DNA from: an uncultured bacterium
GTDB lineage: Bacteria; Zixibacteria; MSB-5A5; JAABVY01; JAHJOQ01
Assembly (NCBI GenBank): GCA_965369655.1
Contig: CBDUQR010000002.1
Span: 33,857-97,856 of the forward strand
Length of the DNA stretch: 64,000 bases
Direction: 5' to 3'
The translations under genes and the position numbers were made by a program. Below the pieces are notes generated by a model, which saw only the letters and a program-made list of their open reading frames with translations, searched no databases and was not told where the DNA came from. Numbering within the stretch: the first letter of the stretch is position 1; every line of letters begins with the position of its first letter. This document shows positions 5,603 to 50,298 of this stretch, one piece after another.

Positions 5603-6817
5603 TTAGCTTGAATATGGATCTTTGCCCTGGAGCTTGTCAGCGTAGAGCGGCGACATGGCAAGAAGCTTCTCGATAATCTCAGGCATGACCGAGATCATGT
5701 AGTCGACCTCTTCCTCACTGTTGTCCTTGCCCATCGAGACTGTGAGCGATCCCGAGCACAACTCCGCCGGAACGCCTACCGCCGTCAGCACATGCGATGT
5801 GACGAGATCTTCTTCGTCCTTACCCCGCAGGTTGGATGCGCACGCCGATCCTGATGCACACATGACGCCTTTCATGTTGAGCATCAGAAGCAGTGATTCG
5901 CCTTCGATGTACCTGATCCAGAAGCTGACATGTCCGGGCAGCCGGTACATCGGATGGCCGGTAAATTCGAGGAATTCGACATTGTTGTCGAGCCAGTCCC
6001 AGAGTTTTGTCTGGAGATTATCGAGGTGCTCGGTTCTTGACGGCGTTTCATCTATGGCGATTTCGCATGCTTTGCCCATTCCAACAATGCCGGGCAGATT
6101 CTCGGTGCCGGACCTGTAGCCCATTTCCTGCATTCCGCCGTCGAGCTGGCACTTGAGCAGGTTTCCGCTTTTCACATAGAGCGCGCCGACTCCCTTCGGC
6201 CCGTACATATTGTGCGACGAGAGCGTCATCGAGTCGACGTCGAGAAGGCGTACATCGATCGGGATGTTGCCGCCAGCCGCCGCAGCATCGGTGTGAAAAA
6301 ACACTCCCATCTCAGATGCAAACTTCCCAATGTCACCGATCTTCTGGACGGTCCCGATCTCGGAGCTTGCAGACTGTACGATCACCATCGCGGTATCGGC
6401 GCGAATCGCTTTGCGAACAGCAATCGGATCAACCCTGCCGTATTTGTCGCATTCGACGAGCGTGATTTCGTAGTCATCCTGCCTGAGTGCGTGGAACTGG
6501 CTGAGTACCGAGAAGTGTTCGATCGACGACGCGACAATATGCCTGCCCTTGTCCCGGTTGGCCTGCAGAAAGCCTTTGATCGCAAGGTTGTTCGATTCGG
6601 TCGCGCCGGAAGTGAAGATCACTTCATCCGATTCGGCGTTGATAAGACTTGCGACCTGCTCGCGAGCCTTGTCGAGCGCCTGCCCCGCCGCAACACCCTG
6701 CTTGTGGATGTGCGACGACGGGTTGCCGTAAAACTCTGAGAAATATGGCAGCATTGCCTCGACAACGCGCCTGTCGACCGGCGTCGTGGACTGGTGGTCG
6801 AAGTATATATTTCTCAT
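5603..6817 (-). CDS. nifS: Cysteine desulfurase (NifS/IscS class V aminotransferase)
   Basis: The 404-aa protein has the N-terminus MRNIYFDHQSTTPVDRRVVEAML and a PLP-lysine region (SSHNMYGPKGVGALY). A NifU scaffold gene follows on the same strand. Confidence 0.85.
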   Translation of the reverse strand: MRNIYFDHQSTTPVDRRVVEAMLPYFSEFYGNPSSHIHKQGVAAGQALDKAREQVASLINAESDEVIFTSGATESNNLAIKGFLQANRDKGRHIVASSIEHFSVLSQFHALRQDDYEITLVECDKYGRVDPIAVRKAIRADTAMVIVQSASSEIGTVQKIGDIGKFASEMGVFFHTDAAAAGGNIPIDVRLLDVDSMTLSSHNMYGPKGVGALYVKSGNLLKCQLDGGMQEMGYRSGTENLPGIVGMGKACEIAIDETPSRTEHLDNLQTKLWDWLDNNVEFLEFTGHPMYRLPGHVSFWIRYIEGESLLLMLNMKGVMCASGSACASNLRGKDEEDLVTSHVLTAVGVPAELCSGSLTVSMGKDNSEEEVDYMISVMPEIIEKLLAMSPLYADKLQGKDPYSS

Positions 6818-6919
6818 GCGCTTAATATATTCGTGATGGTCAAGTAGGGCAGGAGTGCCTCACTCCTGCCGCAACAAGATGGCAGGTGTCGGGGACACCT
6901 GCACTACTCGGTTGGGGAG

Positions 6920-7327
6920 TCAATTTTCTTTCGATTCATCTCCTTCGTGCGATTCCCTGAACTGCTTCAGCGCTTTCGCAAGAGCTTCCTCGGCCATCAC
7001 CGAGCAATGGTGCTTCACAGGCGGCAGGCCTCCGAGAGCATCGATAACCTGACGATTGGTGATTTCTTCGGCCTCTTCGATGGTCTTGCCCTTGATTATT
7101 TCCGTGAGCATAGATGATGCGGCGATTGCGGCGCCGCAACCGAATGTCTTGAATTTCGCATCGATTATTATACCGTTCTCGACCTTAAGGTACAGCCTCA
7201 TCATATCCCCGCATGCCGGGTTGCCGACATCGGCGATCACGTCGGCATCCTTGATCTCACCCATGTTGCGAGGGTTGGTGAAATGCTCCATCACTGTTTC
7301 TGAATATGGATACAACCTGCCTGACAT
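6920..7327 (-). CDS. nifU: Fe-S cluster assembly scaffold NifU/IscU
   Basis: The protein contains HFTNPRNMGEIKDADVIADVGNPACGDMMRLYLKV…FKTFGCGAAIAASS…KHHCSVMAEEALKAA, the three conserved Cys and His of the U-type scaffold. The start is set at the internal Met (MSGRLYPYSETVMEHF), not at the longer six-frame ORF. Confidence 0.85.
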   Translation of the reverse strand: MSGRLYPYSETVMEHFTNPRNMGEIKDADVIADVGNPACGDMMRLYLKVENGIIIDAKFKTFGCGAAIAASSMLTEIIKGKTIEEAEEITNRQVIDALGGLPPVKHHCSVMAEEALAKALKQFRESHEGDESKEN

Positions 7328-7548
7328 CGATCTTACTCCAACATTGACCCACCCGCCGCTGCGCTCTGGGTGGGCTATAGACTGTTGTCTCAGGCGCACG
7401 TTATATGCGCACATTTTGCCAGCACATATTATACACGAAAATTCTCTTTTTCAAAGGGAAAAAGTGTCCGGTTTTGGACATTACAGATTCGGCTGCGCAG
7501 TCGAGGATATCTTCAGCGAGGAGCAGTTCGAGAGGATCGCGATCGGTA

Positions 7549-27251: not shown

Positions 27252-27282
27252 AAAGGAGCGACCCGTTAGGGCCGCTCCTTTG
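27252..27282 (-). terminator. Rho-independent terminator of 27332-30541 (this copy has one stem mismatch)
   Basis: The plus strand reads AAAAGGAGCGACCCGTTAGGGCCGCTCC. On the minus strand the hairpin is followed by a T-tract. The terminator of the paralogue (30847-30878) has the same sequence. Confidence 0.5.
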
Positions 27283-27331
27283 ATTTACTCAGCCTGATAC
27301 AGTCAGTATCAGAGCCGTAGTGGACATGTTA

Positions 27332-30300
27332 TTAGCAGCAGGCAGCCGGATCGGGCGCTGGTCCTCCACCGAAGATGTAGTTGATCAGATACACTACATC
27401 ATCGATGTCGATACCGCCCAAACCGTTGGCATCACCGCAACAGATATGATCCACAGGCTCTGGTCCGCCACCGAAGATATAGTTGATCAGATACACCACA
27501 TCATCGATGTCGACACCACCAGAACCGTTAGCATCGCCCGAAACGCAATCGGACACAGGCTCACAACCCGGACAGTCAATGTTAGCACAGATCCAGGTCT
27601 TACCCTTATCGATGAGATTTTGCAGATCTGAAAGGCCTGTAAGGCTCGAGGCCTTCACCTTGCAGTATACGACGCACTCCTCTGCTGCAAGTGTGAGATC
27701 CTGAGCGATGACGTACACCGAATTGAGGTCCTCTACTGAATCCGAGGCGAGAAATCCGGTATGTGTAGCCAACAGATTGCCTATTTCGGCAGGTACATAA
27801 CCGGAGTTATCATACACCCAGGTGTCGTTTTCGAGGACGATGGCACCAACGATATCACCACAGAAGGATGCGCCGCCATAGTAGTCCTCGTAAGGCGAAC
27901 TGCCGGCGGGACCATACTGGTAGACCATCTGTCTGTCTTCATCGACTCCGGACTGGTTGTCACTGCCGTCTTCGCCGTCCGGTATATCCCAGTCGATACC
28001 TTCACCGAGATGGATGGTGATAGCGGCATCGGTGTTGTTGCAGACTTCAACGCGCTCGATCAGTACACAGACATCCGGGTGCTTCGGCACGTACCACTCA
28101 ATCACACCGGTGATGGCTGAGTCTGGAGTAGCCCACTCGCCGTGAGCGTAGTCGTAGTTGACATCATCCACAAGTATCAGCGAGTCTAAAGCGACGAAGC
28201 TGACTTTGCTGTTGGAGCCGTCGAACATCGAGAAGAATGTCTGAGAGACGTCGTCAGCATATGTCACGATGATACCCTCGTCGTACATTGGCGCGAACTC
28301 TTCGAGGAACCAGAACATATTGCCGAGATCACTGCGTTGAGCAACACCGGCTCTCGGGACGTTCCAGACGCCGATAGACCAGCAAGCGGTCGACAGAATT
28401 TCGTATTCCGGCGGGAAGTACTTACAGGCGACCAGAAGGTTGACAGGAATGTCGACTTGATCGGAACCTTCAGTACTGGTCAGACTGACACTCACGTTAC
28501 CGATTTCGGCGGTTTCGTTGGCCACCGGGCCAACGTCCACGGTGATAGTGGCTACGGTATTGATACCAGCCGTCACCGTACCGGTACCGCCGGTGATGCT
28601 CATCCAGCTTTCAGTTTCGCTTACAATGTAGCCGATCTCGACGTTACCGGTGTTGACGATAACGACATCAAACGACGTCGTAGTCGGCATCGTGCAGTCG
28701 GTACCGCTCGTGGGAGAGATTATCACAGACTGGTCCTCAGGAGCGACCGAATAGCTGAAAATGGCTTCCGGAGTGAAGCATGGGTACGTGGCGTAGAGAA
28801 CCTCGTTCTCGGTTTCTTCTCCCTCATCGTGAACGAACGAGCCAGCGTCATGGTCGCTGACGTAGAAGAGGTGCAGTACACCAGACGAGTATTTGGCCAT
28901 CGATCCGAAGTTCTCGTTGTGGCATGCACCGGCCACACAGCCGTCGGAGTATGTATTGGTCAGGTTGACATAAGTGCCGAGCTTGACCGGGACGCCGCTG
29001 CCAGCGGTCGTCAGTGTGTCGAATTCGTCCAGGGTGCCGTCGGGACCCCATGTGATGCCGCCATCGCTCGATGCAGTCAGGCAGAATTCGCCGTTTGCAT
29101 AACCATTTGCGGAGCAATCACCGTTGTTGTCACCACGGGGCCAGGTTCCAAAACGAGTAAACGAAACGTACATGTTGCCGTCGCATTCGGAGATGTTGAT
29201 TCTGGAAATGGCGCCGAGACCACCACCGATACCGCCGCTGCAGAATCCAGTCGGGGAGGTAGCGTCGAGAACGCGCGATATGACGTTGCTGGACTGATCC
29301 CAGTGCCACATATTGCCGCGGAACAGCGGCTGGCAAGGATCATCTTCTCTGAAATCAGGAGTCAGCCAAATGATGTGAAGGTCCCCGTCAGAGTCGTAGA
29401 CGGCTGATATTTCCGATTGAGCCTTGTGCACAAAATTGATGGGGTCAAGTGTTCCTCCCTCGGTGTAGTCAGTGATGTTGACTTCCGAACCCCAGGTGGC
29501 GCCGCCGTCAGTCGATTCCATGTAGACTATGTCGTGTTGTACCCACTGGAAGTTATTGAGATCGCCGGCAGGGTTGCCATCGCCATCACAACTGTTTCTC
29601 GGGTCACCCTGCTCGTAGAAAGGTTTGCACCAGATGAGGGCCACGTCGTCCGATGTCGGAGCGGGATCAGAGCGAACAGTAGCATTGACCGTATGGGAAG
29701 CATCGATGTAGAGGCCGAGCGTGTCGGTAGAGGTACCGGGGCACTCAGCGAGATCACCGTCAATATACCGATAGTAGATGATCGATTGTATCGACTCGTC
29801 AGGAAGAGCCACCGGCGGCGACTCGGTTGAGACTATGTGCAGTATCTCTTCGCCGGTTGTCAGTTTCTGGAACTCACCTACCGGCCAAATGTATGCATCA
29901 CCTTCATTTGTGCCGGACATTTCTCCCTGGCAGTTCGGTGGACCCGGCGCCCAGCGACTCACGTCAGGAAGGGCTTGAGGAAAGTAGCCGGACGGTGGCA
30001 TCATATCTATGCCCGACCTTGTGGAATAGAGCGCCGAACCCGGGCCTGCATGCCAGAATCCGACCGCAACACCGGCGTCGGTGACGTCAATAGTGGTATA
30101 TCCGCCATTGTTGGCAGATGCTGAATTCCCGGTGTGGCCCCACACCCATGCGCTGGGAGTAGTGATTTTGCGAGAGTTGTAATATATTCTCCGAAAACCG
30201 CTATGATCAGTCGGATGGCCTCTCATCCAGAGAAAGTGAACATATTCCAAACCGCTACCCTGGAAGTTCGGCGTGTAAGCGATCTGCCTCCCCATCGTGC

Positions 30301-30541
30301 CGTTTTTTTGATATTCGTAGTAGGTCACGCCGACTGTGTCGCCGATTGGATTCTGACGCGAAGCAGCGCCTGAAGGGCCGAGCCTCGGGCCGCTCGGTGT
30401 GTCATCACCGGCGATGCTCTTGTAAGGTTTCATCTTGTAGGACTGGCTGGTGGCGTCATCGACATTGGCGATGGCCGAACCCGCAAAGATCAAGAGTGTG
30501 ATCATCGCGATAGCCAGTACAAAATTCTTGCTGGAAATCAT
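27332..30541 (-). CDS. Secreted BNR-repeat (sialidase-like beta-propeller) protein with a C-terminal tandem dockerin-type repeat; paralogue A, 1069 aa
   Basis: It has a signal peptide (MISSKNFVLAIAMITLLIFAGSAIA). BNR motifs are present (STDGGATWGS, SSDGGITWGPDG). The C-terminus is GDANGSGGVDIDDVVYLINYIFGGGPEP…GDANGLGGIDIDDVVYLINYIFGGGPAP, two canonical dockerin Ca-binding segments. It is about 80% identical to 30915-34154 over the C-terminal third. Confidence 0.8.
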   Translation of the reverse strand: MISSKNFVLAIAMITLLIFAGSAIANVDDATSQSYKMKPYKSIAGDDTPSGPRLGPSGAASRQNPIGDTVGVTYYEYQKNGTMGRQIAYTPNFQGSGLEYVHFLWMRGHPTDHSGFRRIYYNSRKITTPSAWVWGHTGNSASANNGGYTTIDVTDAGVAVGFWHAGPGSALYSTRSGIDMMPPSGYFPQALPDVSRWAPGPPNCQGEMSGTNEGDAYIWPVGEFQKLTTGEEILHIVSTESPPVALPDESIQSIIYYRYIDGDLAECPGTSTDTLGLYIDASHTVNATVRSDPAPTSDDVALIWCKPFYEQGDPRNSCDGDGNPAGDLNNFQWVQHDIVYMESTDGGATWGSEVNITDYTEGGTLDPINFVHKAQSEISAVYDSDGDLHIIWLTPDFREDDPCQPLFRGNMWHWDQSSNVISRVLDATSPTGFCSGGIGGGLGAISRINISECDGNMYVSFTRFGTWPRGDNNGDCSANGYANGEFCLTASSDGGITWGPDGTLDEFDTLTTAGSGVPVKLGTYVNLTNTYSDGCVAGACHNENFGSMAKYSSGVLHLFYVSDHDAGSFVHDEGEETENEVLYATYPCFTPEAIFSYSVAPEDQSVIISPTSGTDCTMPTTTSFDVVIVNTGNVEIGYIVSETESWMSITGGTGTVTAGINTVATITVDVGPVANETAEIGNVSVSLTSTEGSDQVDIPVNLLVACKYFPPEYEILSTACWSIGVWNVPRAGVAQRSDLGNMFWFLEEFAPMYDEGIIVTYADDVSQTFFSMFDGSNSKVSFVALDSLILVDDVNYDYAHGEWATPDSAITGVIEWYVPKHPDVCVLIERVEVCNNTDAAITIHLGEGIDWDIPDGEDGSDNQSGVDEDRQMVYQYGPAGSSPYEDYYGGASFCGDIVGAIVLENDTWVYDNSGYVPAEIGNLLATHTGFLASDSVEDLNSVYVIAQDLTLAAEECVVYCKVKASSLTGLSDLQNLIDKGKTWICANIDCPGCEPVSDCVSGDANGSGGVDIDDVVYLINYIFGGGPEPVDHICCGDANGLGGIDIDDVVYLINYIFGGGPAPDPAACC

Positions 30542-30846
30542 AGCTTCTTTCCCTCTGTTGAAGTGAAAAGTTACTTACTTTCATAACATCGACTCCGGCG
30601 ACTTAATTCATCACCGGAACTGATTGAGGATTAAGATTCCTCGGGGCAATCTCTGATCCGATTGAACATATTCCCTCCTCTGTTACAAACAGTTTGGCGT
30701 ACTTAAGAGAGCGGTGAGTATTCTTCTACTATTAGTATAATAATTGCAACTGCTTACAAGTCAAGACAAAAAGAACATCACAGGGGAGCGGTTGCGGCGT
30801 GTGCTCAGTGGGCGGTGCGCTGGGGACAGGCCTGTTTCCAGGCAGT

Positions 30847-30878
30847 GAAAAAAAGGAGCGGCCTGTTAGGGCCGCTCC
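30847..30878 (-). terminator. Rho-independent terminator of 30915-34154
   Basis: GGAGCGGCC-TGTTA-GGGCCGCTCC is a perfect 9-bp stem. It is preceded on the plus strand by an A8 run, which is a T8 run after the hairpin on the minus strand. Confidence 0.55.
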
Positions 30879-30914: not shown

Positions 30915-33900
30915 CTAACAGATATCAACGGGCGGAGGTCCTCCACCGAAGATGTAGTTAATCAGGTAGACTACGTCATCGATGTCGACGCCACCAGAAC
31001 CATTTGCGTCGCCGCAGCAATTATCCTGCACAGGCGGAGGTCCGCCACCGAAGATGTAGTTAATCAGATAGACTACGTCATCGATGTCGACACCGCCACT
31101 GCCGTTTGCGTCACCAGGCACGCAGTCGGGGCCACTGCTAACACAGCCGGGACAGTCGATTTCCGGTGTGTCGGCGATGAATTCCTTGCCCTTATCGATG
31201 AGATTCTGCAGATCCAAAAGGCTTGTAAGGCTCGAGGCCTTCACCTTGCAGAACGTGGTGCAGGCCTGTGCATCGAGGGTAAGATTCTGAGCGATGACGT
31301 ACACCGAATTGAGGTCCTCGGCTGGGTCCGGATTTGGGGCGACAAATCCGGTATGTGTAGCCAGCAGATTACCTATGTCGGCAGGTATGTAACCGGAGTT
31401 CGGATACACCCAGACATCGTTTTCGAGGACGATGGTACCGACGATGTCAACGCAGAAGGATGCACCACCGTGGTAGTCCTCGTAAGGCGAACTGCCAGTG
31501 GGACCATGCTGGTAGACCATCTGTCTGTCGGTATCGACTCCGCAATTGTTGTCAGATCCATCATCTCCATCCGGGAAGTCCCAGTCGATACCTTCACCGA
31601 GATGGATGGTGATAGCAGCATCAGAGTTGTTGCAGACTACGACGCGCTCGATCAGCACACAGTACACCGGGTGCTTCGGCGTGTACCAGTCGATAGTGCC
31701 GGTGATGACAGAGTCCGGAGTGGCCCACAGGCCATTGGCCTGTTCATAGGTGGAATGGTCTGTAACAGTCAATGGTCCCATGGCTATGAAGCTGGCATCA
31801 CTGTCAGAGCCGTCGAACATCGAGAAGAATGTCTGAGAGACATCCTCAGCGTATGTCAAGATGAGACCCTCGTCATACATCGGAGCAACATCCTCGACAA
31901 ACCACCACATGTTGCCCTCGTCATTTCTCTGAGCGAGTCCGGCTCTCGGAACGTTCCAGACGCCGACTGACCAGCAGTGTGTCGAGATCAGGGCATATTC
32001 GGGCACATAGTACAGGCACTCGACATGCGCCGTGACATCAACCACAATTCCCGATGCACTGCCAGCGGAGCTGGTCAGGTCGATTGTTACCGTCCCAGGG
32101 TATTCGCCCTCGGCCCCGATCGGACCAACTGTCATGACGACATCAGCCGTTGGATTGATGCCGGCAGTGATTGTACCACTACCGGAAGCAGGATTCAACC
32201 ATGACTGGTCGGATGTGAACGTATAGTTGATCGGAACGTTTCCTGCGTTCGTGATCGTAATAGTGAAGTCGTCGGTGTATTCGATAGTACAGTCGGGTAC
32301 GCCATTCGGTGCGATCGGCACGAACGCGCTTGATGGATCAACTCTGTAATCGAACGTACCTTCCGGCTCGAAGCACGGATATGTCATGTACATATATGCG
32401 TTATTTGTGTATTCACCTTCCGCATCCACAACGACGGCTGCGCCGGGATGGTTGTCGTCAATGTACGCGATATGTACGACGTCGGTCGAGTACTTGGCCA
32501 TGCTTGACCAGTGTTCGCTGTGGCAATCGCCAGCCACGCAATCGTCAGTGCGAGTGTTGGTCACGTTGACTGCCGTGCCAGTTTTCACTGCGGTACCTGT
32601 TCCTCCGGTCGTGAGGTAGTCGTATGGAGGAGCGGCAGCGTCCGGACCCCACGTGATACCACCGTCGCTGGAACCTGTCAGGAAGATGTCACCGTTGAGA
32701 AACATCAGATCCGAGTAGTCTCCACCAACACTGTCATGAATAACCATGGCAGGGTCCATTGTTGTGTCAGGATGAGCGCCGAAACGGGTGAACGAAACAT
32801 AGAGCCTCTCGTCACACTCGGAGATATTCGGCTTGCTGGTCATTATGTTCCACACACCGGTGTTCGAGAAAGTACCACCGGGTCCTCTGAAGAGGAAGGG
32901 CATCGTGGCGTCGTAGACCGGGGTGATTTCCTGGTTGAAATCATCCCAATGCCACATCATGGTGGTATAGTAGCTTCCTTCACACGCACCGGCAGCGGGC
33001 CATACCGGAGTATTCCAGACAATGTGCAGTGTGCCGAGATGGTCATACAGCGCAGTCACATCTGTATACGCCATGTACTTGATCTCACTGATCGCGAGAG
33101 TGCCGCCGTCTGAGTAATTGGTGATGTTGGTCGGTGTCGCATCCCAGGTCACGCCGCCATCATTGGATTCGAAGTAAGCGACGTCGTGCTGCCACTGTGT
33201 GTACTCGCAATCATTATTGGGATGGTTAGGATCAGGATACATATCCTTTAGATACACGATGGCGACCTTATCCGAACCCGGGTCGGATCGGACTACCGGG
33301 GTGATGTTCTGGTCCTCGGTCATCCAGCGACCGAGAGTATCCGTAGATGTACCCGTGCACTCGTCCGTGGTATCGTTCACAATACGGTAATAGATGAAAG
33401 ACTGTATCGTGGCTGCCGGGGGTATAGGATCCCCACCCGGGTTCTCGGTGGATATGACGTGATAGACGTCATTTCCGTCGACATTGTCATACTCTATGAC
33501 CGGCCAGAGGTATTCGCTTTCCAACTCATAACCATCCTCACCTTCGCCCTCGCAGTTTGGCGGAGCCGGTTGCTGAAGCTTGGAGAACGGGGTGTTCGGC
33601 GGCATTAGGTCCTTGCCAGCATATGTGAAGTAAAAACCGGCGAGGCCCTCATGCCAGGAGGCGATTGCGGCGCCTTCGCTATTGACGTCGATTGTCGTAT
33701 ATCCGCCATTAGCGCCGGAGAATGATGTGCCGGCGTTATCATCGCCGTGCCTGTGAATCCATGCCTGCGGGGCACTCAACTTTCTTGCGTTGTAACGGAT
33801 ATACCTTGTCGCGCCAGGGGCGTTCCTCCACATCCAGACAAAGTGAATATATGGATGCCCATTTAGATCTGGGGTGTAAGCAATCTGTCTGCCCATTGAG

Positions 33901-34154
33901 CCGTTGTGCTGGAAGTCGTAGTATGTCAAACCTGCGGTATCACCGGGAGGCTGGGGGACAGGGCCGAAGCGTGACGGGCCGAAACGCGGCACGTCAGCGC
34001 CGATAAGTTCATCGGATCCGCCAGTTACAGCCTGAGGGGTCAATTGGCTCTCTGGACGGACGTTACTGATTTCACTTTCGATTGCCATCGCAGGTGCGGC
34101 AAGCATAAGCAGGATCGCCACCGCAAGGCAAAAGACTTTTGAATTTTCTGTCAT
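30915..34154 (-). CDS. Secreted BNR-repeat beta-propeller protein with a C-terminal tandem dockerin-type repeat; paralogue B, 1079 aa
   Basis: The start is set at MTENSKVF, with a GGAGAGG RBS. It has a signal peptide and BNR motifs (SNDGGVTWDA, SSDGGITWGPDA). The C-terminus is GDANGSGGVDIDDVVYLINYIFGGGPPP repeated twice. Confidence 0.8.
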   Translation of the reverse strand: MTENSKVFCLAVAILLMLAAPAMAIESEISNVRPESQLTPQAVTGGSDELIGADVPRFGPSRFGPVPQPPGDTAGLTYYDFQHNGSMGRQIAYTPDLNGHPYIHFVWMWRNAPGATRYIRYNARKLSAPQAWIHRHGDDNAGTSFSGANGGYTTIDVNSEGAAIASWHEGLAGFYFTYAGKDLMPPNTPFSKLQQPAPPNCEGEGEDGYELESEYLWPVIEYDNVDGNDVYHVISTENPGGDPIPPAATIQSFIYYRIVNDTTDECTGTSTDTLGRWMTEDQNITPVVRSDPGSDKVAIVYLKDMYPDPNHPNNDCEYTQWQHDVAYFESNDGGVTWDATPTNITNYSDGGTLAISEIKYMAYTDVTALYDHLGTLHIVWNTPVWPAAGACEGSYYTTMMWHWDDFNQEITPVYDATMPFLFRGPGGTFSNTGVWNIMTSKPNISECDERLYVSFTRFGAHPDTTMDPAMVIHDSVGGDYSDLMFLNGDIFLTGSSDGGITWGPDAAAPPYDYLTTGGTGTAVKTGTAVNVTNTRTDDCVAGDCHSEHWSSMAKYSTDVVHIAYIDDNHPGAAVVVDAEGEYTNNAYMYMTYPCFEPEGTFDYRVDPSSAFVPIAPNGVPDCTIEYTDDFTITITNAGNVPINYTFTSDQSWLNPASGSGTITAGINPTADVVMTVGPIGAEGEYPGTVTIDLTSSAGSASGIVVDVTAHVECLYYVPEYALISTHCWSVGVWNVPRAGLAQRNDEGNMWWFVEDVAPMYDEGLILTYAEDVSQTFFSMFDGSDSDASFIAMGPLTVTDHSTYEQANGLWATPDSVITGTIDWYTPKHPVYCVLIERVVVCNNSDAAITIHLGEGIDWDFPDGDDGSDNNCGVDTDRQMVYQHGPTGSSPYEDYHGGASFCVDIVGTIVLENDVWVYPNSGYIPADIGNLLATHTGFVAPNPDPAEDLNSVYVIAQNLTLDAQACTTFCKVKASSLTSLLDLQNLIDKGKEFIADTPEIDCPGCVSSGPDCVPGDANGSGGVDIDDVVYLINYIFGGGPPPVQDNCCGDANGSGGVDIDDVVYLINYIFGGGPPPVDIC

Positions 34155-34527
34155 TGTTCTACCTCTCCTCAAGGTTTCATCACTGGTGTTGCGCGTGATG
34201 TTGGTTCAAAGTAAGAGAAAGCCTCTAACATAAGTTGCTGTTTCAAATTCGTTAGAAGCTAAGTCGAAGTACCGGCATGCGTCCTCCTATTATGTTTTGT
34301 GTTCCGGGTCAATTGTAGTATTCAACAATACTATTTAAAGAAGAAGCTCTGCTCATGTTTAGATTAATAGACACGGCCATGAAAGTCAAGGCAAAAAACA
34401 CAATTGTTTGCCCAAAAAAAACGTGACGGAAGCTTTCGATGGCGTTTTGGGACTGACTTCCAGGACCGATATCTGGCCGGATGAACCGGCGCAATAATTG
34501 CGAAAGTACGCCGTGCAGAAGATATTG

Positions 34528-35592: not shown

Positions 35593-37695
<2,103 letters not shown>

Positions 37696-38045
37696 AAACC
37701 CACCCGACGCTTTCGCTTTGGGTGGGCTACCGGTCTGATTGACTTGAGCGAGAAGCTGACTCTGTCGCTCCCGCGGAGGCGGGAGCCTATTTAACGATAA
37801 CGCATTCAATAGATTCCCGCCTGCGCGGGAATGACGCTATTTTCTTTCGCAAACATGATTACCTGCCTTTCGAATCTTTTGGGACAACCTCGGGAGGTCT
37901 ACCAGCCACAAAATGAGATTGCCACGCTCCCTTCGGTCGCTCACGATGACCGCATCGAGGGAAATTCCACAGAAAAGCAGAAGGGAGCGGCATGTGCCGA
38001 CTCCCTTGCCAAGCCATCTTGTGATTTTGACTGGTCTGTGCCGAT

Positions 38046-45769: not shown

Positions 45770-45865
45770 GTAACCTCCTGTTTTGTTCGATACTGTGGGA
45801 ATATACTACAGTAGAGGTTGGTTGTCAAATTAGTTGCTCGATATTTGAAAGTCTTGACCATATTC

Positions 45866-45925
45866 AGAACCCACCCGAAGCTGCGCTTTGGACAGGAAGG
45901 GGTTTCGATCTACTCAACTATTAGT
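45866..45925. repeat. Composite short repeat (family B): AACCCACCCGAMGCT and GGACAGGWAARGGTTTCGAYCTACTCAACT
   Basis: The first motif also occurs at 37699-37713, the second at 50149-50182. The second motif overlaps the stop codon of the 45910-46686 gene. Confidence 0.4.
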
Positions 45926-46686
45926 TCCCTAGCGAAAAGATCTTTCATCATCTGATTTGTTGCGTCAATTGACAGAGACAGCAGGTCTTGTGCTTGATCC
46001 AAGTCATACCGCGCATCTGGATGTTGAGTTGGATTGCGGAAATTTATCCGGATGTTATCGAGATGATCTAATAGTGACTTCTTTGGGACGTCACTGCGTT
46101 TTCTAAGGTGCATTATCATCGCGTTCCACATCAGTGATTTAGTGCGACCACGCTTTACAATCGTCGTATAGTAATACCGGAGTGCCCCTTCAGTGCCACG
46201 CATAAGATGGAACGCTGCTGCTGTTGAGAGTGCAAAACCAATACAATGACAGGCCTGCGCAAAGTCAAACTGTGTAATTGTAGGCAATGTTGAATAGACG
46301 CCTTTGGCGAAGAGATTCCCTGGGCTATATAACAAATTGTCTAAGTCAAAACGCTTCGGCGTGACAATATACGCGTAACGGAGTTGCAACTCAGCATCAA
46401 GAGTCTTGTCGAGTTGTTCGATAGCTTCGTGGACCTCTGTCTCTAGATCGCCATCCATTTTCGAATCTACAGGCAGTTTTTTGACTCGACTTTGAATCAA
46501 GCGAAGCATCCCTGCTGCCTGATTCGTTACCTGAAGATTCAGACCGTCAGCATAACTAAGGAACTCGTTGATCCGATCCAGAAGGGAATTACTTTCTCCA
46601 TGCACAGTCATTCCCTTCTTCGAGAATCGAAGGATGTTGTAATTGTACCCGAATGCAAAATAGTCGTATATTGGGATACGCTTCAT
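45910..46686 (-). CDS. Hypothetical protein with a C-terminal HEPN-type Rx4H motif (Abi-like)
   Basis: The 258-aa protein has an AT-rich gene (~43% GC against ~55% nearby). The motif is NIRINFRNPTQHPD. It lies in an islet bounded by dispersed repeats. Confidence 0.5.
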   Translation of the reverse strand: MKRIPIYDYFAFGYNYNILRFSKKGMTVHGESNSLLDRINEFLSYADGLNLQVTNQAAGMLRLIQSRVKKLPVDSKMDGDLETEVHEAIEQLDKTLDAELQLRYAYIVTPKRFDLDNLLYSPGNLFAKGVYSTLPTITQFDFAQACHCIGFALSTAAAFHLMRGTEGALRYYYTTIVKRGRTKSLMWNAMIMHLRKRSDVPKKSLLDHLDNIRINFRNPTQHPDARYDLDQAQDLLSLSIDATNQMMKDLFARELIVE

Positions 46687-46864
46687 TAGTAGTTCCTCAC
46701 TTTCGCCTCATCGAAATCGTAATTTTAAAAAACAATAGCTCCGTCTTCAGGAATCCAGATAATTAAAAGTATATTGCAAGTGGCTTTGGTAGTCAAGCGA
46801 TTGGTGCGAAATTCGTTCACGGTATGAGTAGGGGTGAGCTCGCAGCGGAGTGAATGGTTCAGTT

Positions 46865-46936
46865 CTTGTAGGTCAAGCGCGCTCGCGCTTGACGATTAGA
46901 AAAGATGTCAAGCGGTCAGGCCGCTTGACCTACAAG
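46865..46936. repeat. Nested palindromic element (family A): a 15-bp perfect terminal inverted repeat CTTGTAGGTCAAGCG / CGCTTGACCTACAAG enclosing two inner hairpins
   Basis: It reads CTTGTAGGTCAAGCGCGCTCGCGCTTGAC…GTCAAGCGGTCAGGCCGCTTGACCTACAAG. Related elements occur at 49426-49645. Confidence 0.55.
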
Positions 46937-46992
46937 ACTGCGGATATCTGTAATCTCCTTGACTTGAATGCTCGCCTCGGTATACTTCTGTT

Positions 46993-47676
46993 ATGAGTGA
47001 TGGAAAATTATACATAGTCGCGACGCCTATCGGTAATCTCTCTGATGTTACTCAGCGAGCTGCGGACACGCTTCGTTCAGTCGATATCATCGCATGCGAA
47101 GATACAAGGCATTCTGGCAAATTGCTCAAACATCACGGTATCTCTGCGAGACTGATTCAGTACCACGATCACAACAAAGATCATTCCGCGCCCGGCATCG
47201 TCAAGATGCTTCTCGAAGGACACGATGTCGCGCTAATCACCGACTCGGGCACGCCGGGCATCTCTGATCCGGCATTTGTACTCGTGCGACTCGCGCTGGC
47301 CGATGACATAGAAATTATCACCATTCCAGGCGCCTGCGCAGCTATCGCAGCGCTCACCATCTCGGGACTGCCGATGGACAGGTTTGCGTTCGAGGGTTTC
47401 CTGCCTGTGCGAGTTGGTAGACGAAGAACGAGACTCCTGAGTGTCAAGGATGATCCGCGCACGCAAGTGTTCTACGAATCGCCTCATCGGCTTGTCAAGG
47501 TGCTCGCCGCTATGAGGGAAGTATTCGGAAACAGGAATGTGGCGATCGCGCGGGAATTGACCAAGATCCACGAAGAGGTTATCAGGGGGACGTTCGACGA
47601 CATCTTAGACCGGTTCAGCGAGTCAAAACCACGAGGGGAATTCGTCATCATTGTCGAAGGAAACACCGGCAAATAG
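46993..47676 (+). CDS. rsmI: 16S rRNA (cytidine1402-2'-O)-methyltransferase RsmI
   Basis: LYIVATPIGNLSDVTQRAADTLRSVDIIACEDTRHSGKLLKHHGI…is the tetrapyrrole-methylase-fold signature of RsmI. Confidence 0.85.
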   Translation: MSDGKLYIVATPIGNLSDVTQRAADTLRSVDIIACEDTRHSGKLLKHHGISARLIQYHDHNKDHSAPGIVKMLLEGHDVALITDSGTPGISDPAFVLVRLALADDIEIITIPGACAAIAALTISGLPMDRFAFEGFLPVRVGRRRTRLLSVKDDPRTQVFYESPHRLVKVLAAMREVFGNRNVAIARELTKIHEEVIRGTFDDILDRFSESKPRGEFVIIVEGNTGK

Positions 47677-48550
47677 CAGCAGCCGCGGACTCATCCCGGT
47701 AGATTATCTGGTCCTTGGCTACCTGATTCTTACAAGCACACTTTTTATCGTCTCAGATTGTGCTGCTTCCTGTCGAATTGTATGGCTCGGATTCAATGCA
47801 GCAGCGGCAGTGCTTGTTCTGATTCTCAGGAGAATCGACCTGCGAGCATCCGGACGCGGCGTCAGATGGCTGCGAGAATACTATCCCGTCCTGCTGTTCA
47901 CATTCTTCTATGAACAGACCCAGCCCTTAATTGACGCGTTCAGTTCAGGATGGCTCGATGCTCAGGTGGTCGAGTTCGAGATTGAGCTTCTCGGATTGCA
48001 GCCCTCGCTTGTGGTGGAGAGGTACTTCAGCCCGCTCCTGAATGATGTCATAATTGGGTGCTATGTTTCGTACTACCTTTGGCTGCCTGTGGGACTGCTG
48101 TACTTTCTGATCAGGAGTGATGAGAATACCGCTGACCAGGTTCTCACGGCGGCGACCATAGTATTCTTCATTTCATATGCGACCTTCGTTCTCTACCCGG
48201 TCGAGGGGCCGAGATACCATCTTGCAGGTCTGTTCGAAAGAGACATGGTCGGGTACATCTTCGTGCCACTGGTCGGACAGATCATGGATACTGCGGCAGT
48301 ACATGGCGGTGCCATGCCGTCGTCTCATACAGCAACCGCGCTGATCGTGCTTGTGGGACTGTTTCGTCGGTCAAGACGGCTTGGAATTCTGCTTTTGCCT
48401 GTCTTCCTCGGTCTGATGATCGGATGTGTCTGGGGGCGATTTCATTATGTATCCGATGTCGCTGTCGGGATCGCCATCGCGATTCTCGCGGAATGCCTGA
48501 CGAGGCTCATATTTGCCAGAGGATGGTTGGGAGCGCGCCGACTGCTATAA
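47651..48550 (+). CDS. PAP2-superfamily membrane protein (lipid phosphatase or inositol-phosphoryl transferase-like)
   Basis: PAP2 motifs C2 and C3 are present (PSSHTA; GRFHYVSDV) in a protein with 6 TM helices. It overlaps the rsmI end by 26 nt, so the start is uncertain. Confidence 0.7.
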   Translation: MSKETPANSSSRGLIPVDYLVLGYLILTSTLFIVSDCAASCRIVWLGFNAAAAVLVLILRRIDLRASGRGVRWLREYYPVLLFTFFYEQTQPLIDAFSSGWLDAQVVEFEIELLGLQPSLVVERYFSPLLNDVIIGCYVSYYLWLPVGLLYFLIRSDENTADQVLTAATIVFFISYATFVLYPVEGPRYHLAGLFERDMVGYIFVPLVGQIMDTAAVHGGAMPSSHTATALIVLVGLFRRSRRLGILLLPVFLGLMIGCVWGRFHYVSDVAVGIAIAILAECLTRLIFARGWLGARRLL

Positions 48551-48606
48551 AGTTGTTGATCGATCGATATAACATGAGTATCATCCTGCCTGTTTGAAAG
48601 GACCGC

Positions 48607-49422
48607 ATGTATCCTGAGATAGTCAAATTAGGACCGATAGTTATCCGCTCGTATGGATTGATGTTGGCGTTGTCGTTCTTTGCTGGTGTGCTGTTGGTGA
48701 GATATCGAGCAAAGAAGATCGGCGTCAATCCCGAGTTTGTGGTGAATTTATCGTTTATCGTCATTATTGCAGGAGTCATCGGGGCAAGGCTGTTCTACGC
48801 ATTTTATCACTGGTCGGATTTTGCCGGAGATATGCTTGATATCTTCAATCCTTTCGGATCATCTGAAGGTTTTGGAATTGCCGGTCTGAACATGCAGGGT
48901 GGATTGTTGCTCGCATTTCTGTCGGCTGTCGGTTACTGCCTGATCAGGAAGCAATCGATTGCGGTAGTATTCGACCTGTTTGCTCCGGCGGTCGCCCTTG
49001 GGATATTCATCACCCGAATCGGATGCTTCCTCAATGGCTGCTGCTTTGGTACGGAATGCGATTTGCCGTGGGCGGTTCGTTTCCCGGAGGGGAGTATTCC
49101 GAATTCGCACCTTGGCGATGTTTACATACATCCGGCGCAGTTGTATTCGTCGCTTTACGGGCTTTTGTTGTTTTTCATTCTGTCTTTTGTCGAAAAGAAG
49201 AAGACTTTTGTGGGATTGACATTCTCTCTGTTTCTCATAATCGAGGCAGTGTTTAGATACGCGATAGAATACGTTCGCTACTATGAGTATCAGATGAAGG
49301 TTGAGCTTTTCGGTGTGATGTTTACCTACAATCACATTGTCGCGATTCTGATGTTCCTGGCTGGCTGGGGATTGCTTCTATTCTTTCGCGCAAGAGTCGG
49401 ATCGAAGACACCTGCCGTTTAG
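48607..49422 (+). CDS. lgt: Prolipoprotein diacylglyceryl transferase
   Basis: Lgt signature blocks are present (GPIVIRSYGLMLALSF…RLFYAFYHW…) in a protein with 7 TM helices. Confidence 0.85.
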   Translation: MYPEIVKLGPIVIRSYGLMLALSFFAGVLLVRYRAKKIGVNPEFVVNLSFIVIIAGVIGARLFYAFYHWSDFAGDMLDIFNPFGSSEGFGIAGLNMQGGLLLAFLSAVGYCLIRKQSIAVVFDLFAPAVALGIFITRIGCFLNGCCFGTECDLPWAVRFPEGSIPNSHLGDVYIHPAQLYSSLYGLLLFFILSFVEKKKTFVGLTFSLFLIIEAVFRYAIEYVRYYEYQMKVELFGVMFTYNHIVAILMFLAGWGLLLFFRARVGSKTPAV

Positions 49423-49660
49423 ACAGTAGGTCAAGCTCACTTGGAGCTTGACTCTTCACACGTCACGCCCCTCTTCGTCAAACTCAAGACAGAGCAAGTG
49501 GGCATGTTTGTGGGCGGCAGACGTCCTCGTCTGCCCCATCCAGCGTTGACATCGGCAGATGTGGACATCTGCCCCGCACAAGTAGGTCAAGCTCACTTGG
49601 AGCTTGACACTTCACACGTCATGCCCCGAGTGGGCATGACCTACTACTCTGCGACCTAAT
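49423..49660. repeat. Highly structured intergenic region: two ~46-bp direct repeats of a family A element plus several perfect hairpins
   Basis: The direct repeats are 49426-49471 and 49581-49626 (GTAGGTCAAGCTCACTTGGAGCTTGAC(T/A)CTTCACACGTCA(C/T)GCCCC). The second is completed by GAGTGGGCATGACCTAC. Perfect hairpins are GGCAGACGTCCTCGTCTGCC and GGCAGATGTGGACATCTGCC. Confidence 0.5.
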
Positions 49661-50002
49661 CTAATAACCCGAGATGTACCGCCATTCGACTTTCTCTCCG
49701 CCATGCAGCATATACTTGTCGGATGCTATTGTGGCGGTAGTGTCATTCACGAAGTAGAGCCAGTATGCTGATCTCGTGTTGGCTGTGCTATCGATGCTTT
49801 TGACGAACACGCCTGAGGGAGATGAATCATATTCAACTTCGTGATCTGATCTGAGAAGATCGAAGACTGAGATACCGGATGAGTCGGGTAGAGCAATTGT
49901 ATGGATAGATTCCTTGCCAGATTCTGAAGAACAGTTAACCAGCAAGAGAGTTGTCAAGATCAGGAACACGGCGAGAACGAACTGTCGGGTTTGTTTCAAC
50001 AC
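49661..50002 (-). CDS. DUF4430-like secreted lipoprotein
   Basis: It has a signal/lipobox (LLVNCSS). The pattern VFDLL…VEY…GVFVKSID…YWLYFVND…GEKVEWRY matches DUF4430. Confidence 0.5.
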   Translation of the reverse strand: MLKQTRQFVLAVFLILTTLLLVNCSSESGKESIHTIALPDSSGISVFDLLRSDHEVEYDSSPSGVFVKSIDSTANTRSAYWLYFVNDTTATIASDKYMLHGGEKVEWRYISGY

Positions 50003-50298
50003 AGAAGCAGGTTACCTGTTTCACGTCCTGAGAACAAGTTTGAAAGTTGAGGTCAAATCTCGGAGTCCGCGAAGCGAACGGAGAGACTTGACAATCCTTT
50101 TTCCTTTTCGCGCTTCGCGCAAGATGTCGAAACCACCCTTCGCAGGCTCAGGACAGGTAAAGGTTTCGACCTACTCAACTGTCAAGACGTTAAATAGTTA
50201 TGAGAACTGACATGGGTTGTTCGGGACGGCGAAACAGCTTGACGTTATGTTTTGAGGCTCGTATATTTCTCAACTTAATGGAAGTGGTGTTAGCTAGT

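What the first reader, a model, noticed from the sequence alone, without database searches (positions are those of the whole stretch)
46865..49660. Family of nested palindromic intergenic elements with GTAGGTCAAGC / GCTTGACCTAC termini
The element at 46865-46936 has a perfect 15-bp terminal inverted repeat and two internal hairpins. The element at 49581-49645 has the same termini (GTAGGTCA…TGACCTAC) with different internal hairpins. A truncated copy lies at 49426-49471, a 46-bp direct repeat of the left half with 2 mismatches. The 240-bp gap between lgt and the DUF4430 gene (49423-49660) additionally holds two perfect hairpins (GGCAGACG-TCC-TCGTCTGCC; GGCAGATGT-GG-ACATCTGCC). The structure resembles REP/BIME-like or MITE-like elements. 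It could also be a structured sRNA or an attachment site.
Basis: seen in the sequence. Interest (0 to 1): 0.5.

Follow-up and report, generated by a model that had tools for sequence, protein, structure and literature searches.

The report
GTAG-tagged REP/REPIN repeats in Zixibacteria

Summary
Each unit is an unpaired GTAG tag followed by a perfect 9-10 bp hairpin (GTAG-GTCAAGC…GCTTGAC). Units sit as head-outward inverted pairs at 46865-46936 and 49581-49645, with a decayed pair at 49425-49500. The two GGCAG hairpins (49516-49573) belong to a second class, which has an intact GTAG-tagged pair at 6844-6907. The window holds 7 GTAG-tagged perfect hairpins against 0.56 expected.

This is the anatomy of GTAG-type REPs paired as REPINs and clustered like BIMEs. 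The same head and hairpin recur in many Zixibacteria and Ignavibacteria MAGs, on several contigs per genome, with compensatory changes in the inner stem. In relatives, both classes directly flank genes for REP-associated tyrosine transposases (RAYT/TnpA-REP). The whole pair occurs in unrelated gene contexts in two metagenome contigs. It is absent from the same sites in more distant syntenic genomes and present but decayed in a closer one.

No RAYT gene lies in the window, and the rest of this genome could not be read. Copy number and the cognate transposase in this organism are therefore inferred.

Verdict: new member of a known kind; low-to-moderate interest.

The parts
46865..46936 (.). REPIN 1: head-outward pair of two GTAG-GTCAAGCG REPs with a 13-nt spacer. 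It lies between the two divergent promoter-like sites.
   Evidence: Perfect 15-bp terminal inverted repeat. It folds as one long hairpin, -28 kcal/mol, z = -8.4. Promoter-like sites are at 46959-46986 (+) and 46796-46768 (-).
46868..46893 (+). REP unit a: GTAG + GTCAAGCGCG-ct-CGCGCTTGAC
46907..46933 (-). REP unit b (read on the - strand): GTAG + GTCAAGCGG-cctga-CCGCTTGAC
49426..49452 (+). REP unit c1: GTAG + GTCAAGCTC-acttg-GAGCTTGAC. It starts 4 nt after the lgt stop codon.
   Evidence: (D12)
49462..49500 (-). Decayed partner of c1: GTCACGCCCC...GTGGGCATG, with about 26 nt inserted in the loop and the CTAC end lost.
   Evidence: Alignment A1; sequence
49508..49581 (.). Pair of second-class REPs (GGCAGACG-tcct-CGTCTGCC and GGCAGATGT-gg-ACATCTGCC). 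The heads are degenerate (GTGGGC on the + strand, GCGG on the - strand).
   Evidence: Same class as 6844-6907, as the hairpin next to the REPIN in L126, and as the REPs flanking the RAYT in L138-L140.
49582..49608 (+). REP unit c2: identical to c1
49618..49644 (-). REP unit d (read on the - strand): GTAG + GTCATGCCC-actcg-GGGCATGAC. With c2 it forms REPIN 2 (49581-49645).
   Evidence: The whole pair is 85-87% identical to L126 and L127.
6844..6907 (.). Third GTAG-tagged head-outward pair, second class: GTAG-GGCAGGAGTG-cct-CACTCCTGCC ... GCAGGTGTC-ggg-GACACCTGC-A-CTAC. It lies between ORFs 5603-6817(-) and 6920-7414(-).
50046..50174 (.). Probable decayed pair. Left unit: GTTGAG-GTCAAATCTC...GAGACTTGAC. 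Right unit: GTCGAAACC-(27 nt)-GGTTTCGAC-CTAC.
   Evidence: The GTCGAAACC stem matches the REP upstream of the RAYT in L131.
45865..45919 (.). Partial copy of the right unit above, ending GGTTTCGAT-CTAC. Its CTAC supplies the stop codon of the 258-aa ORF.
   Evidence: D18, 83% to 50146-50180

Best explanation
These are REP sequences of the GTAG-tagged type, arranged as REPINs (two REPs in inverted orientation, tags outward) and, between lgt and DUF4430, as a BIME-like cluster of three pairs. The window holds two classes, GTAG-GTCAAGC... and GTAG-GGCAG....

**Proposed mechanism, by analogy with the E. coli, Stenotrophomonas and Marinomonas systems.** When the DNA is single-stranded, each unit folds into a hairpin. 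A single-copy RAYT/TnpA-REP, an HUH tyrosine enzyme related to the IS200 transposase, recognises the GTAG tag and the hairpin, then cuts and rejoins nearby. This occasionally copies or excises a REPIN without making a target duplication. Copies then persist and decay in place. Units whose tag has mutated (GTGG, GCGG here; GCAG, CCAC in L141) are predicted to be dead.

**What is shown:** the anatomy, the family's dispersal, stem covariation, RAYT genes flanked by both classes in relatives, and presence or absence at orthologous sites.

**What is inferred:** that this genome has its own RAYT, and that the copies have any host-level role such as protecting mRNA 3' ends after lgt.
For: **Anatomy**
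- Each unit is a GTAG tag plus a perfect 9-10 bp stem. The pairs are head-outward, with spacers of 9-13 nt.
- This matches the published definition of GTAG REPs and their HH dimers (PMC3733652) and of REPINs (PMC3116915).

**Excess over chance**
- 7 tagged hairpins against 0.56 expected.
- 4 palindromes against 0.04 expected.

**Family**
Zixibacteria and Ignavibacteria MAGs account for 63 of 135 matches, with several contigs per MAG.
- Zixibacteria loci also carry sister classes: GTCAGG, GTCAAA, GGCAGG.

**Structure under selection**
- In 46 distinct units chosen only by GTAGGTCA...TGAC, the five free stem pairs are 97.3% paired.
- They show 58 two-sided changes against 12 in shuffles (0 of 500 shuffles as high).

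**Transposase link**
- RAYT ORFs abut these REPs on both sides in L006 and L105, and in L128/L130 (36 nt upstream, 5 nt downstream). L131 and L134/L136 have a sister-class REP upstream. L138-L140 are flanked on both sides by the GGCAG class.
- The L006 and L105 proteins score 141.8 and 136 bits on NCBIfam NF047646 REP_Tyr_transpos (cut-off 80).
- The L006 protein matches E. coli TnpA-REP, PDB 4ER8, at E = 2.8e-25.
- The HUH histidines and the catalytic-region Tyr are invariant in 23 sequences.
- Of the 120 best RAYT matches listed, the five that carry an organism name are all Zixibacteria.

**Mobility and history**
- The whole c+d pair is 85-87% identical in L126 and L127, which share no flanking genes with the window.
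- Syntenic loci L142 and L143 lack REPs at both sites.
- L141, with 77-90% amino-acid identity in the neighbouring genes, has two decayed pairs at the same spacer.
- No target duplication is present, as expected for IS200-type chemistry.
- Independent short-read contigs end in or next to the elements.
Against: - The cognate enzyme and the true copy number in this organism are unknown.
- Only three clusters are seen in 64 kb.
- An exact-27-mer scan of JGI metagenomes found just two other contigs.
- L141 shows that the lgt cluster is old and vertically inherited, so recent movement is not demonstrated.
- No RAYT activity on this REP class has ever been tested.
Confidence: 0.85

Rival explanations
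1. Local duplication only: the copies near lgt and rsmI arose by duplication within this 3-kb stretch. The hairpins are ordinary transcription terminators or mRNA-end stabilisers, not members of a dispersed element family.
For: - 49425-49471 and 49581-49627 are a local direct repeat at 96% identity.
- The cluster sits between convergent genes.
- One hairpin read on the - strand has a T-rich tail.
- L141 keeps a cluster at the same spot.
Against: - The same pair occurs in unrelated contexts in other genomes.
- The same head and hairpin lie on many contigs of many MAGs.
- It flanks RAYT genes.
- Terminator-like sites are no more frequent than in shuffles, 4 against 2.4, and the other hairpins have no T run.
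- Element 1 lies between divergent promoters, where a terminator has no role.
Confidence: 0.04
2. Operator sites: GTCAAGC-N-GCTTGAC palindromes are binding sites for a dimeric transcription factor that regulates the neighbouring genes.
For: The palindromes are perfect. Two of them lie 35 bp apart between divergent promoters.
Against: - The GTAG tag is on one side only of each palindrome, which a symmetric dimer site does not need.
- The inner stem varies freely with compensating changes, so pairing is conserved rather than sequence.
- Most copies lie in 3' or convergent spacers and beside unrelated genes in other genomes.
- The units are associated with RAYT genes.
Confidence: 0.03
3. Structured RNA: the region encodes an sRNA or a cis-acting RNA element whose function is carried by the hairpins.
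For: - The RNA fold of 49423-49660 is strong (-111 kcal/mol, z = -8.1).
- REPs in other bacteria are often transcribed as mRNA 3' ends (PMC3733652).
Against: - No Rfam family matches at gathering or relaxed thresholds.
- The units occur in both orientations within each pair.
- Loops and spacers are not conserved.
- An RNA role would be secondary to the REP identity and would not replace it.
Confidence: 0.05
4. MITE derived from a DDE-type insertion sequence, moved through its terminal inverted repeats.
For: A 15-bp perfect terminal inverted repeat and small size.
Against: - There is no target-site duplication at either complete element.
- The termini are themselves GTAG plus hairpin feet.
- Single unpaired units exist (49426-49452, and L006).
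- The only transposase genes found beside such units are HUH/Y1 enzymes.
Confidence: 0.02

Closest known systems
GTAG-tagged REPs and their HH dimers (Di Nocera, De Gregorio & Rocco 2013, PMC3733652); E. coli REP/BIME
   Same: - Unpaired GTAG at one end, a 6-13 bp stem and a short loop.
- Units paired tags-outward 1-100 bp apart, sometimes clustered.
- Extragenic, and associated with RAYT genes in REPtrons.
   Different: - The stem sequence GTCAAGC (and GGCAG) was not found in the text or held supplements of that paper. Its Figure 1 could not be read.
- No paper in the library links GTAGGTCAAGC to repeats.
- The host phylum, Zixibacteria, is not among those listed there.
- The palindromes are perfect, unlike the bulged E. 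coli REP.
REPINs of Pseudomonas fluorescens SBW25 (Bertels & Rainey 2011, PMC3116915)
   Same: - Two REPs in inverted orientation with a short spacer, predicted to fold as one hairpin (46865-46936).
- Pairs are conserved as a unit across genomes.
- They persist at orthologous sites.
- Each class is tied to its own RAYT.
   Different: - In 49581-49645 the two halves have different stems (GTCAAGCTC and GTCATGCCC). That pair folds as two hairpins joined only by the 8-bp ends, more like the Y/Z pairs of E. coli BIMEs (my own knowledge).
- Population size in this genome is unknown.
TnpA-REP / RAYT of E. coli (PDB 4ER8; PMC3479197) and the group 2 / group 3 REPtrons studied by Corneloup et al. 2021 (PMC8266576)
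   Same: - The RAYTs next to these REPs in relatives are full-length equivalogs, with HUH and Tyr intact.
- They end in a nearly invariant Gly-Glu. In E. coli TnpA-REP, a C-terminal Gly-Glu contacts the last two bases of GTAG.
   Different: - Only about 36% identity to the E. coli enzyme.
- The REPs are perfect palindromes, as in the published group 3, while the protein looks closer to the E. coli type.
- No biochemistry exists for this clade, and the Gly-Glu correspondence is a resemblance, not an alignment-proven match.
IS200/IS605 ends and their palindrome-associated miniature derivatives
   Same: Subterminal hairpins recognised as single-stranded DNA by a Y1 HUH enzyme, with no target duplication.
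   Different: The adjacent enzymes score far higher on the RAYT model than on the IS200 model (141.8 against 31.9 bits). The units are short, GTAG-tagged and symmetric rather than distinct left and right ends.

Membership tests
GTAG-type REP | Short (20-40 bp) palindromic unit able to form a stem-loop | tested here: met
   The GTCA-class units are 26-27 nt, made of a 4-nt tag and a 22-23-nt hairpin with a perfect 9-10 bp stem. DNA folds have z-scores from -6 to -8.4.
GTAG-type REP | Unpaired GTAG tetranucleotide at one end of the hairpin | tested here: met
   All five GTCA-class units and both units at 6844-6907 carry GTAG. The two units at 49508-49581 have degenerate tags.
GTAG-type REP | Extragenic location | tested here: met
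   All copies lie between ORFs. In other genomes, 35 of the 45 well-formed units lie outside long ORFs.
GTAG-type REP | Many dispersed copies in the same genome | tested here: inconclusive
   - Only 64 kb is visible. It holds 7 tagged hairpins in 3 clusters against 0.56 expected.
- Contigs of other assemblies end at or near the elements.
GTAG-type REP | Cognate RAYT/TnpA-REP gene flanked by the same REPs (REPtron) | not testable with these tools
   For this genome, no RAYT lies in the window and the rest of the genome is unavailable. In relatives the feature is met: L006, L105 and L128/L130 for the GTCAAG class, and L138-L140 for the GGCAG class.
REPIN | Two REPs in inverted orientation, separated by a short spacer, that together fold into one hairpin | tested here: met
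   46865-46936 folds as one long hairpin. 49581-49645 is an inverted pair but folds as two hairpins because its halves differ.
REPIN | The pair, not the single unit, is the conserved or replicating entity | tested here: inconclusive
   The whole pair, spacer included, is 85-87% identical in L126 and L127. No within-genome population could be analysed.
MITE (DDE-type) | Terminal inverted repeats flanked by a target-site duplication | tested here: not met
   Flanks are ...TTCAGTT | element | ACTGCGG... and ...CGCACAA | element | TACTCTG.... Neither shows a direct repeat.
Intrinsic terminator | GC-rich hairpin followed by a T run | tested here: not met
   Only one of nine hairpins scores, and only on the - strand. 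The total is 4 against 2.4 in shuffles.
Any Rfam RNA family | Match to a curated covariance model | tested here: not met
   No match at gathering score over the whole window. Only two chance-level hits (E > 3) appear in 46600-49800.

The most novel reading that the evidence does not exclude
The 11-nt head GTAG-GTCAAGC is shared by REP families in at least six phylum-level groups: Zixibacteria, Ignavibacteria, Chloroflexota, Bacteroidota, Marinimicrobia and Melainabacteria. It sits beside at least two different RAYT types, the 166-aa E. coli-like clade and a 208-aa protein in L096 that falls below the RAYT model cut-off.

Such sharing would imply either cross-phylum transfer of REP-RAYT systems, which are generally held to be vertically inherited, or a strong shared constraint on what these enzymes can recognise.

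In this lineage the repeats may also have driven local rearrangement. The DUF4430 gene is inverted and an orphan 258-aa gene is inserted, and both are bounded by REP copies.
Probability: 0.3. Interest if true: 0.45.

Novelty: new member of a known kind. Interest (0 to 1): 0.27.

Why it matters
REPs and REPINs have been studied almost only in Proteobacteria and a few cyanobacteria. This finding adds a well-defined pair of REP classes, with candidate cognate RAYTs, in Zixibacteria and their neighbours.

It gives annotators a simple signature: GTAG-GTCAAGC...GCTTGAC and GTAG-GGCAG.... That signature explains hairpin-rich spacers in these MAGs and possibly contig breaks as well.

The broad sharing of one REP head across phyla could be used to ask how RAYT specificity evolves. 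Nothing here changes how these elements are thought to work.

Tried and rejected
- **Rfam:** the whole window at gathering score and the region at relaxed threshold gave nothing.
- **tRNA and tandem repeats:** no tRNA gene, and only a trivial 15-nt tandem repeat inside lgt. This gives no support for an attachment site or a repeat array such as CRISPR.
- **Terminator scan:** not enriched.
- **RAYT in the window:** phmmer found none. The probes were the E. coli RAYT and IS200 TnpA sequences written from memory. They were used only as probes, and the hits were validated afterwards with Pfam, NCBIfam and PDB.
- **Recovering the rest of this organism's genome:**
  - Exact-protein look-ups returned only 1-3.5 kb contigs from other samples. 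One look-up found nothing.
  - The single metagenome scan, with the exact 27-mer, returned two contigs from other organisms.
  - No GTDB locus is a close relative; the best nucleotide identity is 67-73%.
- **Literature:** no relevant paper contains GTAGGTCAAGC or GTCAAGC, and the supplements of the GTAG-REP survey do not either.
- **GGTAGTCAAGCG at 46786-46797:** I first took this for a REP remnant. It is better explained as the -35 box of the leftward promoter-like site.
Full report
**1. The observation**

- At 46865-46936, CTTGTAGGTCAAGCG and CGCTTGACCTACAAG form a perfect 15-bp inverted repeat.
- Within that element, GTCAAGCGCG-ct-CGCGCTTGAC (46872-46893) and GTCAAGCGG-tcagg-CCGCTTGAC (46907-46929) are perfect hairpins.
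- At 49581-49645 the same ends enclose GTCAAGCTC-acttg-GAGCTTGAC and GTCATGCCC-cgagt-GGGCATGAC.
- 49425-49471 repeats 49581-49627 at 96% identity (D12).
- The two GGCAG hairpins lie at 49516-49535 and 49554-49573.

None of this is chance.
- The GTCAAGC...GCTTGAC palindrome occurs 4 times against 0.04 expected.
- GTAG followed by a perfect stem occurs 7 times, all with stems of at least 9 bp, against 0.56 in dinucleotide shuffles.
- Folding energies are 6 to 8 standard deviations below shuffles.

**2. The unit**

The informative way to parse the elements is as single units, not as nested palindromes. Each unit is an unpaired GTAG followed at once by a 22-23-nt perfect hairpin. Units come in inverted pairs with the tags facing outward:
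- a + b at 46868-46933;
- c2 + d at 49582-49644;
- c1 plus a broken partner at 49426-49500.

GCAGGTGTC-ggg-GACACCTGC-A-CTAC. This shows that the two GGCAG hairpins in the lgt spacer belong to a second class whose tags have decayed to GTGG(GC) and GCGG.

The 238-nt spacer between lgt and DUF4430 is therefore filled by three pairs in a row. It starts 4 nt after the lgt stop codon and ends 15 nt before the DUF4430 stop codon.

Decayed relatives lie at 50046-50174 and 45865-45919.

**3. Relatives elsewhere**

By my estimate, about 480 chance matches are expected in 596 Gb. The single hits inside coding sequence, with unpaired spacers, look like that background. Matches in MAGs labelled Zixibacteria (36) and Ignavibacteria (27) dominate. 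They lie mostly outside long ORFs, on several contigs per MAG, and many are followed by a second hairpin ending in CTAC. Weak nucleotide similarity of window genes to Zixibacteria loci, and the names attached to PAP2 homologues, place the window in Zixibacteria.

*Covariation.* I took every unit matching only GTAGGTCA-N15-TGAC in all held sequence, which gave 46 distinct units. The five unconstrained stem pairs are 97.3% paired, with 58 two-sided changes against 12 in shuffles. Pairing collapses when the partner column is slid. The hairpin, not its inner sequence, is what is kept.

**4. The transposase link**

I screened all ORFs in the held loci with approximate RAYT and IS200 probes, then validated the hits. 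This found REP-associated tyrosine transposase genes lying directly against these REPs.

| Locus | REPs flanking the RAYT gene |
|---|---|
| L006 | Three GTAG-GTCAAGCCGCC units on one side; GTCAAACGGC...-CTAC on the other |
| L105 | The pair GTAG-CTCAAATC... + GTCAAGCCTCG...-CTAC on both sides |
| L128/L130 (Zixibacteria) | GTAG-GTCAAGACC hairpin 36 nt upstream; its inverted twin ending CTAC 5 nt downstream |
| L131 | Sister stem GTCGAAACC upstream |
| L134/L136 | Sister stem GTCAGGACT upstream |
| L138-L140 | GTAG-GGCAGAACC on both sides, i.e. the window's second class |

The L006 and L105 proteins score 141.8 and 136 bits on NCBIfam REP_Tyr_transpos (cut-off 80), against about 30 bits on the IS200 model. 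The L006 protein matches E. coli TnpA-REP (4ER8) at E = 2.8e-25. A search with it found 599 relatives, and the five named ones among the 120 listed are all from Zixibacteria. The HUH histidines, the Tyr of DYIHYNPVKH and a C-terminal Gly-Glu are invariant or nearly so. Both REP classes also sit side by side in other genomes (L057; L126).

**5. History at these sites**

- *Other assemblies of the same organism.* Contigs from four other samples are 100% identical where they overlap the window. They end at 46800, 46865 (L001 begins there), 46952, 46975 and 49532. The last two of these positions lie inside REP elements and the others within about 65 nt of one. This fits a repeat that breaks short-read assemblies, but it is only suggestive.
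- *A diverged strain.* In a strain 94% identical across this stretch (L002), unit c1 has already lost stem pairs.
- *Unrelated contexts.* L126 and L127 carry the whole c+d pair at 85-87% identity next to unrelated genes.
- *Empty sites.* The syntenic loci L142 and L143 (57-78% amino-acid identity in the neighbouring genes; 49% for DUF4430) have no REPs in either spacer.
- *An old cluster.* L141 (77-90% identity) has two decayed pairs at the same lgt/DUF4430 spacer, with tags GCAG and CCAC. The cluster therefore entered after the split from the L142/L143 lineage. It has been inherited vertically since and is eroding, which is the pattern described for REPINs.

**6. Mechanism**

In the studied systems, TnpA-REP binds the folded single-stranded REP and needs the GTAG motif for cleavage. 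It cuts at a nearby CT and is a down-regulated monomer (PMC3479197; PMC8266576). In S. maltophilia, single tag substitutions reduced cleavage (CTAG), left it barely detectable (GCAG) or abolished it (GTTG, GTAC).

By analogy, the intact GTAG units here are substrates of a RAYT encoded elsewhere in this genome, and the units with mutated tags are relics. That step is inference.

A host-level role for the hairpins immediately after lgt, such as protecting the mRNA 3' end, is possible but untested. They are not canonical terminators. Element 1 sits neatly between two divergent promoter-like sites without touching either.

**7. Rivals**

- *Local duplication with terminators* fails on the copies in other genomes and on the RAYT association.
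- *Operator sites* fail on the one-sided tag, the free covariation of the inner stem and the unrelated gene contexts.
- *A structured RNA* has no Rfam support and no conserved loops or spacers. It could at most be a secondary use.
- *A DDE-type MITE* fails for lack of target duplications.
- *An attachment site* has no tRNA and no integrase among the annotated flanking genes.

**8. Verdict**

This is a new member of a known kind: GTAG-tagged REP/REPIN elements of two classes in a Zixibacteria genome.

What is missing is the rest of the genome, which would give the copy number and the cognate RAYT.

The mildly interesting residue has two parts. One is the sharing of the GTAG-GTCAAGC head across several phyla and two RAYT types. 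The other is the coincidence of REP copies with two local rearrangements, a DUF4430 inversion and an inserted orphan gene.

Noticed in passing
window 45910-46686 (-): A 258-aa ORF with no Pfam match is absent from the syntenic loci L142 and L143, where SSB and rsmI are directly divergent. In the window it is bounded by a partial REP copy (45865-45919, whose CTAC supplies its stop codon) and by REPIN 46865-46936. It may be an insertion associated with the repeats.
   Followed up: partly
window 49661-50002 (-), compared with L142:9420-9761 and L143:6857-7192 (+): The DUF4430 gene is inverted in the window and in L141 relative to L142 and L143. In the window the inverted gene is flanked by the REP cluster 49425-49645 and by the decayed pair 50046-50174, which suggests repeat-mediated inversion.
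   Followed up: partly
L003, L014, L019, L051, L071, L097, L119 (Chloroflexota); L049, L093; L017, L096; L013, L030, L077; L046, L067, L082, L107: A sister REP type, GTAGGTCAAGCATCCCTGCTTGAC (8-bp stem, 1-4-nt loop), occurs in Chloroflexota (Anaerolineae, Caldilinea), Marinimicrobia, Bacteroidota and Melainabacteria MAGs. It is usually paired with a second hairpin ending in (C)TAC. In L096 it flanks a longer (208-aa) Y1 protein that scores below the RAYT model cut-off (69.5 against 80 bits).
   Followed up: partly
window 37606-38040: A long spacer holds other hairpins: CCCACCC...GGGTGGG-CTAC at about 37699-37730, GCTCCCGC-ggag-GCGGGAGC at 37767, and ATTCCCGC-ctgc-GCGGGAAT at 37813. A 40-nt stretch (37911-37950) is 92% identical to L126:3641-3680. 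These may be further repeat families.
   Followed up: no
window 27332-30541 and 30915-34172 (-): Two adjacent ORFs of about 1070-1085 aa are tandem paralogues (80-86% nucleotide identity over long stretches, spacing about 3.59 kb). Each has a similar GGAGCGGCC...GGCCGCTCC hairpin beside it, at 27255-27289 and 30844-30878 (D1-D3, I6).
   Followed up: no
RAYT alignment A2 (P0001-P0117, L105, E. coli): RAYTs of this clade end exactly in a nearly invariant (F/Y)-G-E. In E. coli TnpA-REP, a C-terminal Gly-Glu contacts the last two bases of GTAG (PMC8266576). The correspondence is suggestive but not established by the alignment.
   Followed up: no
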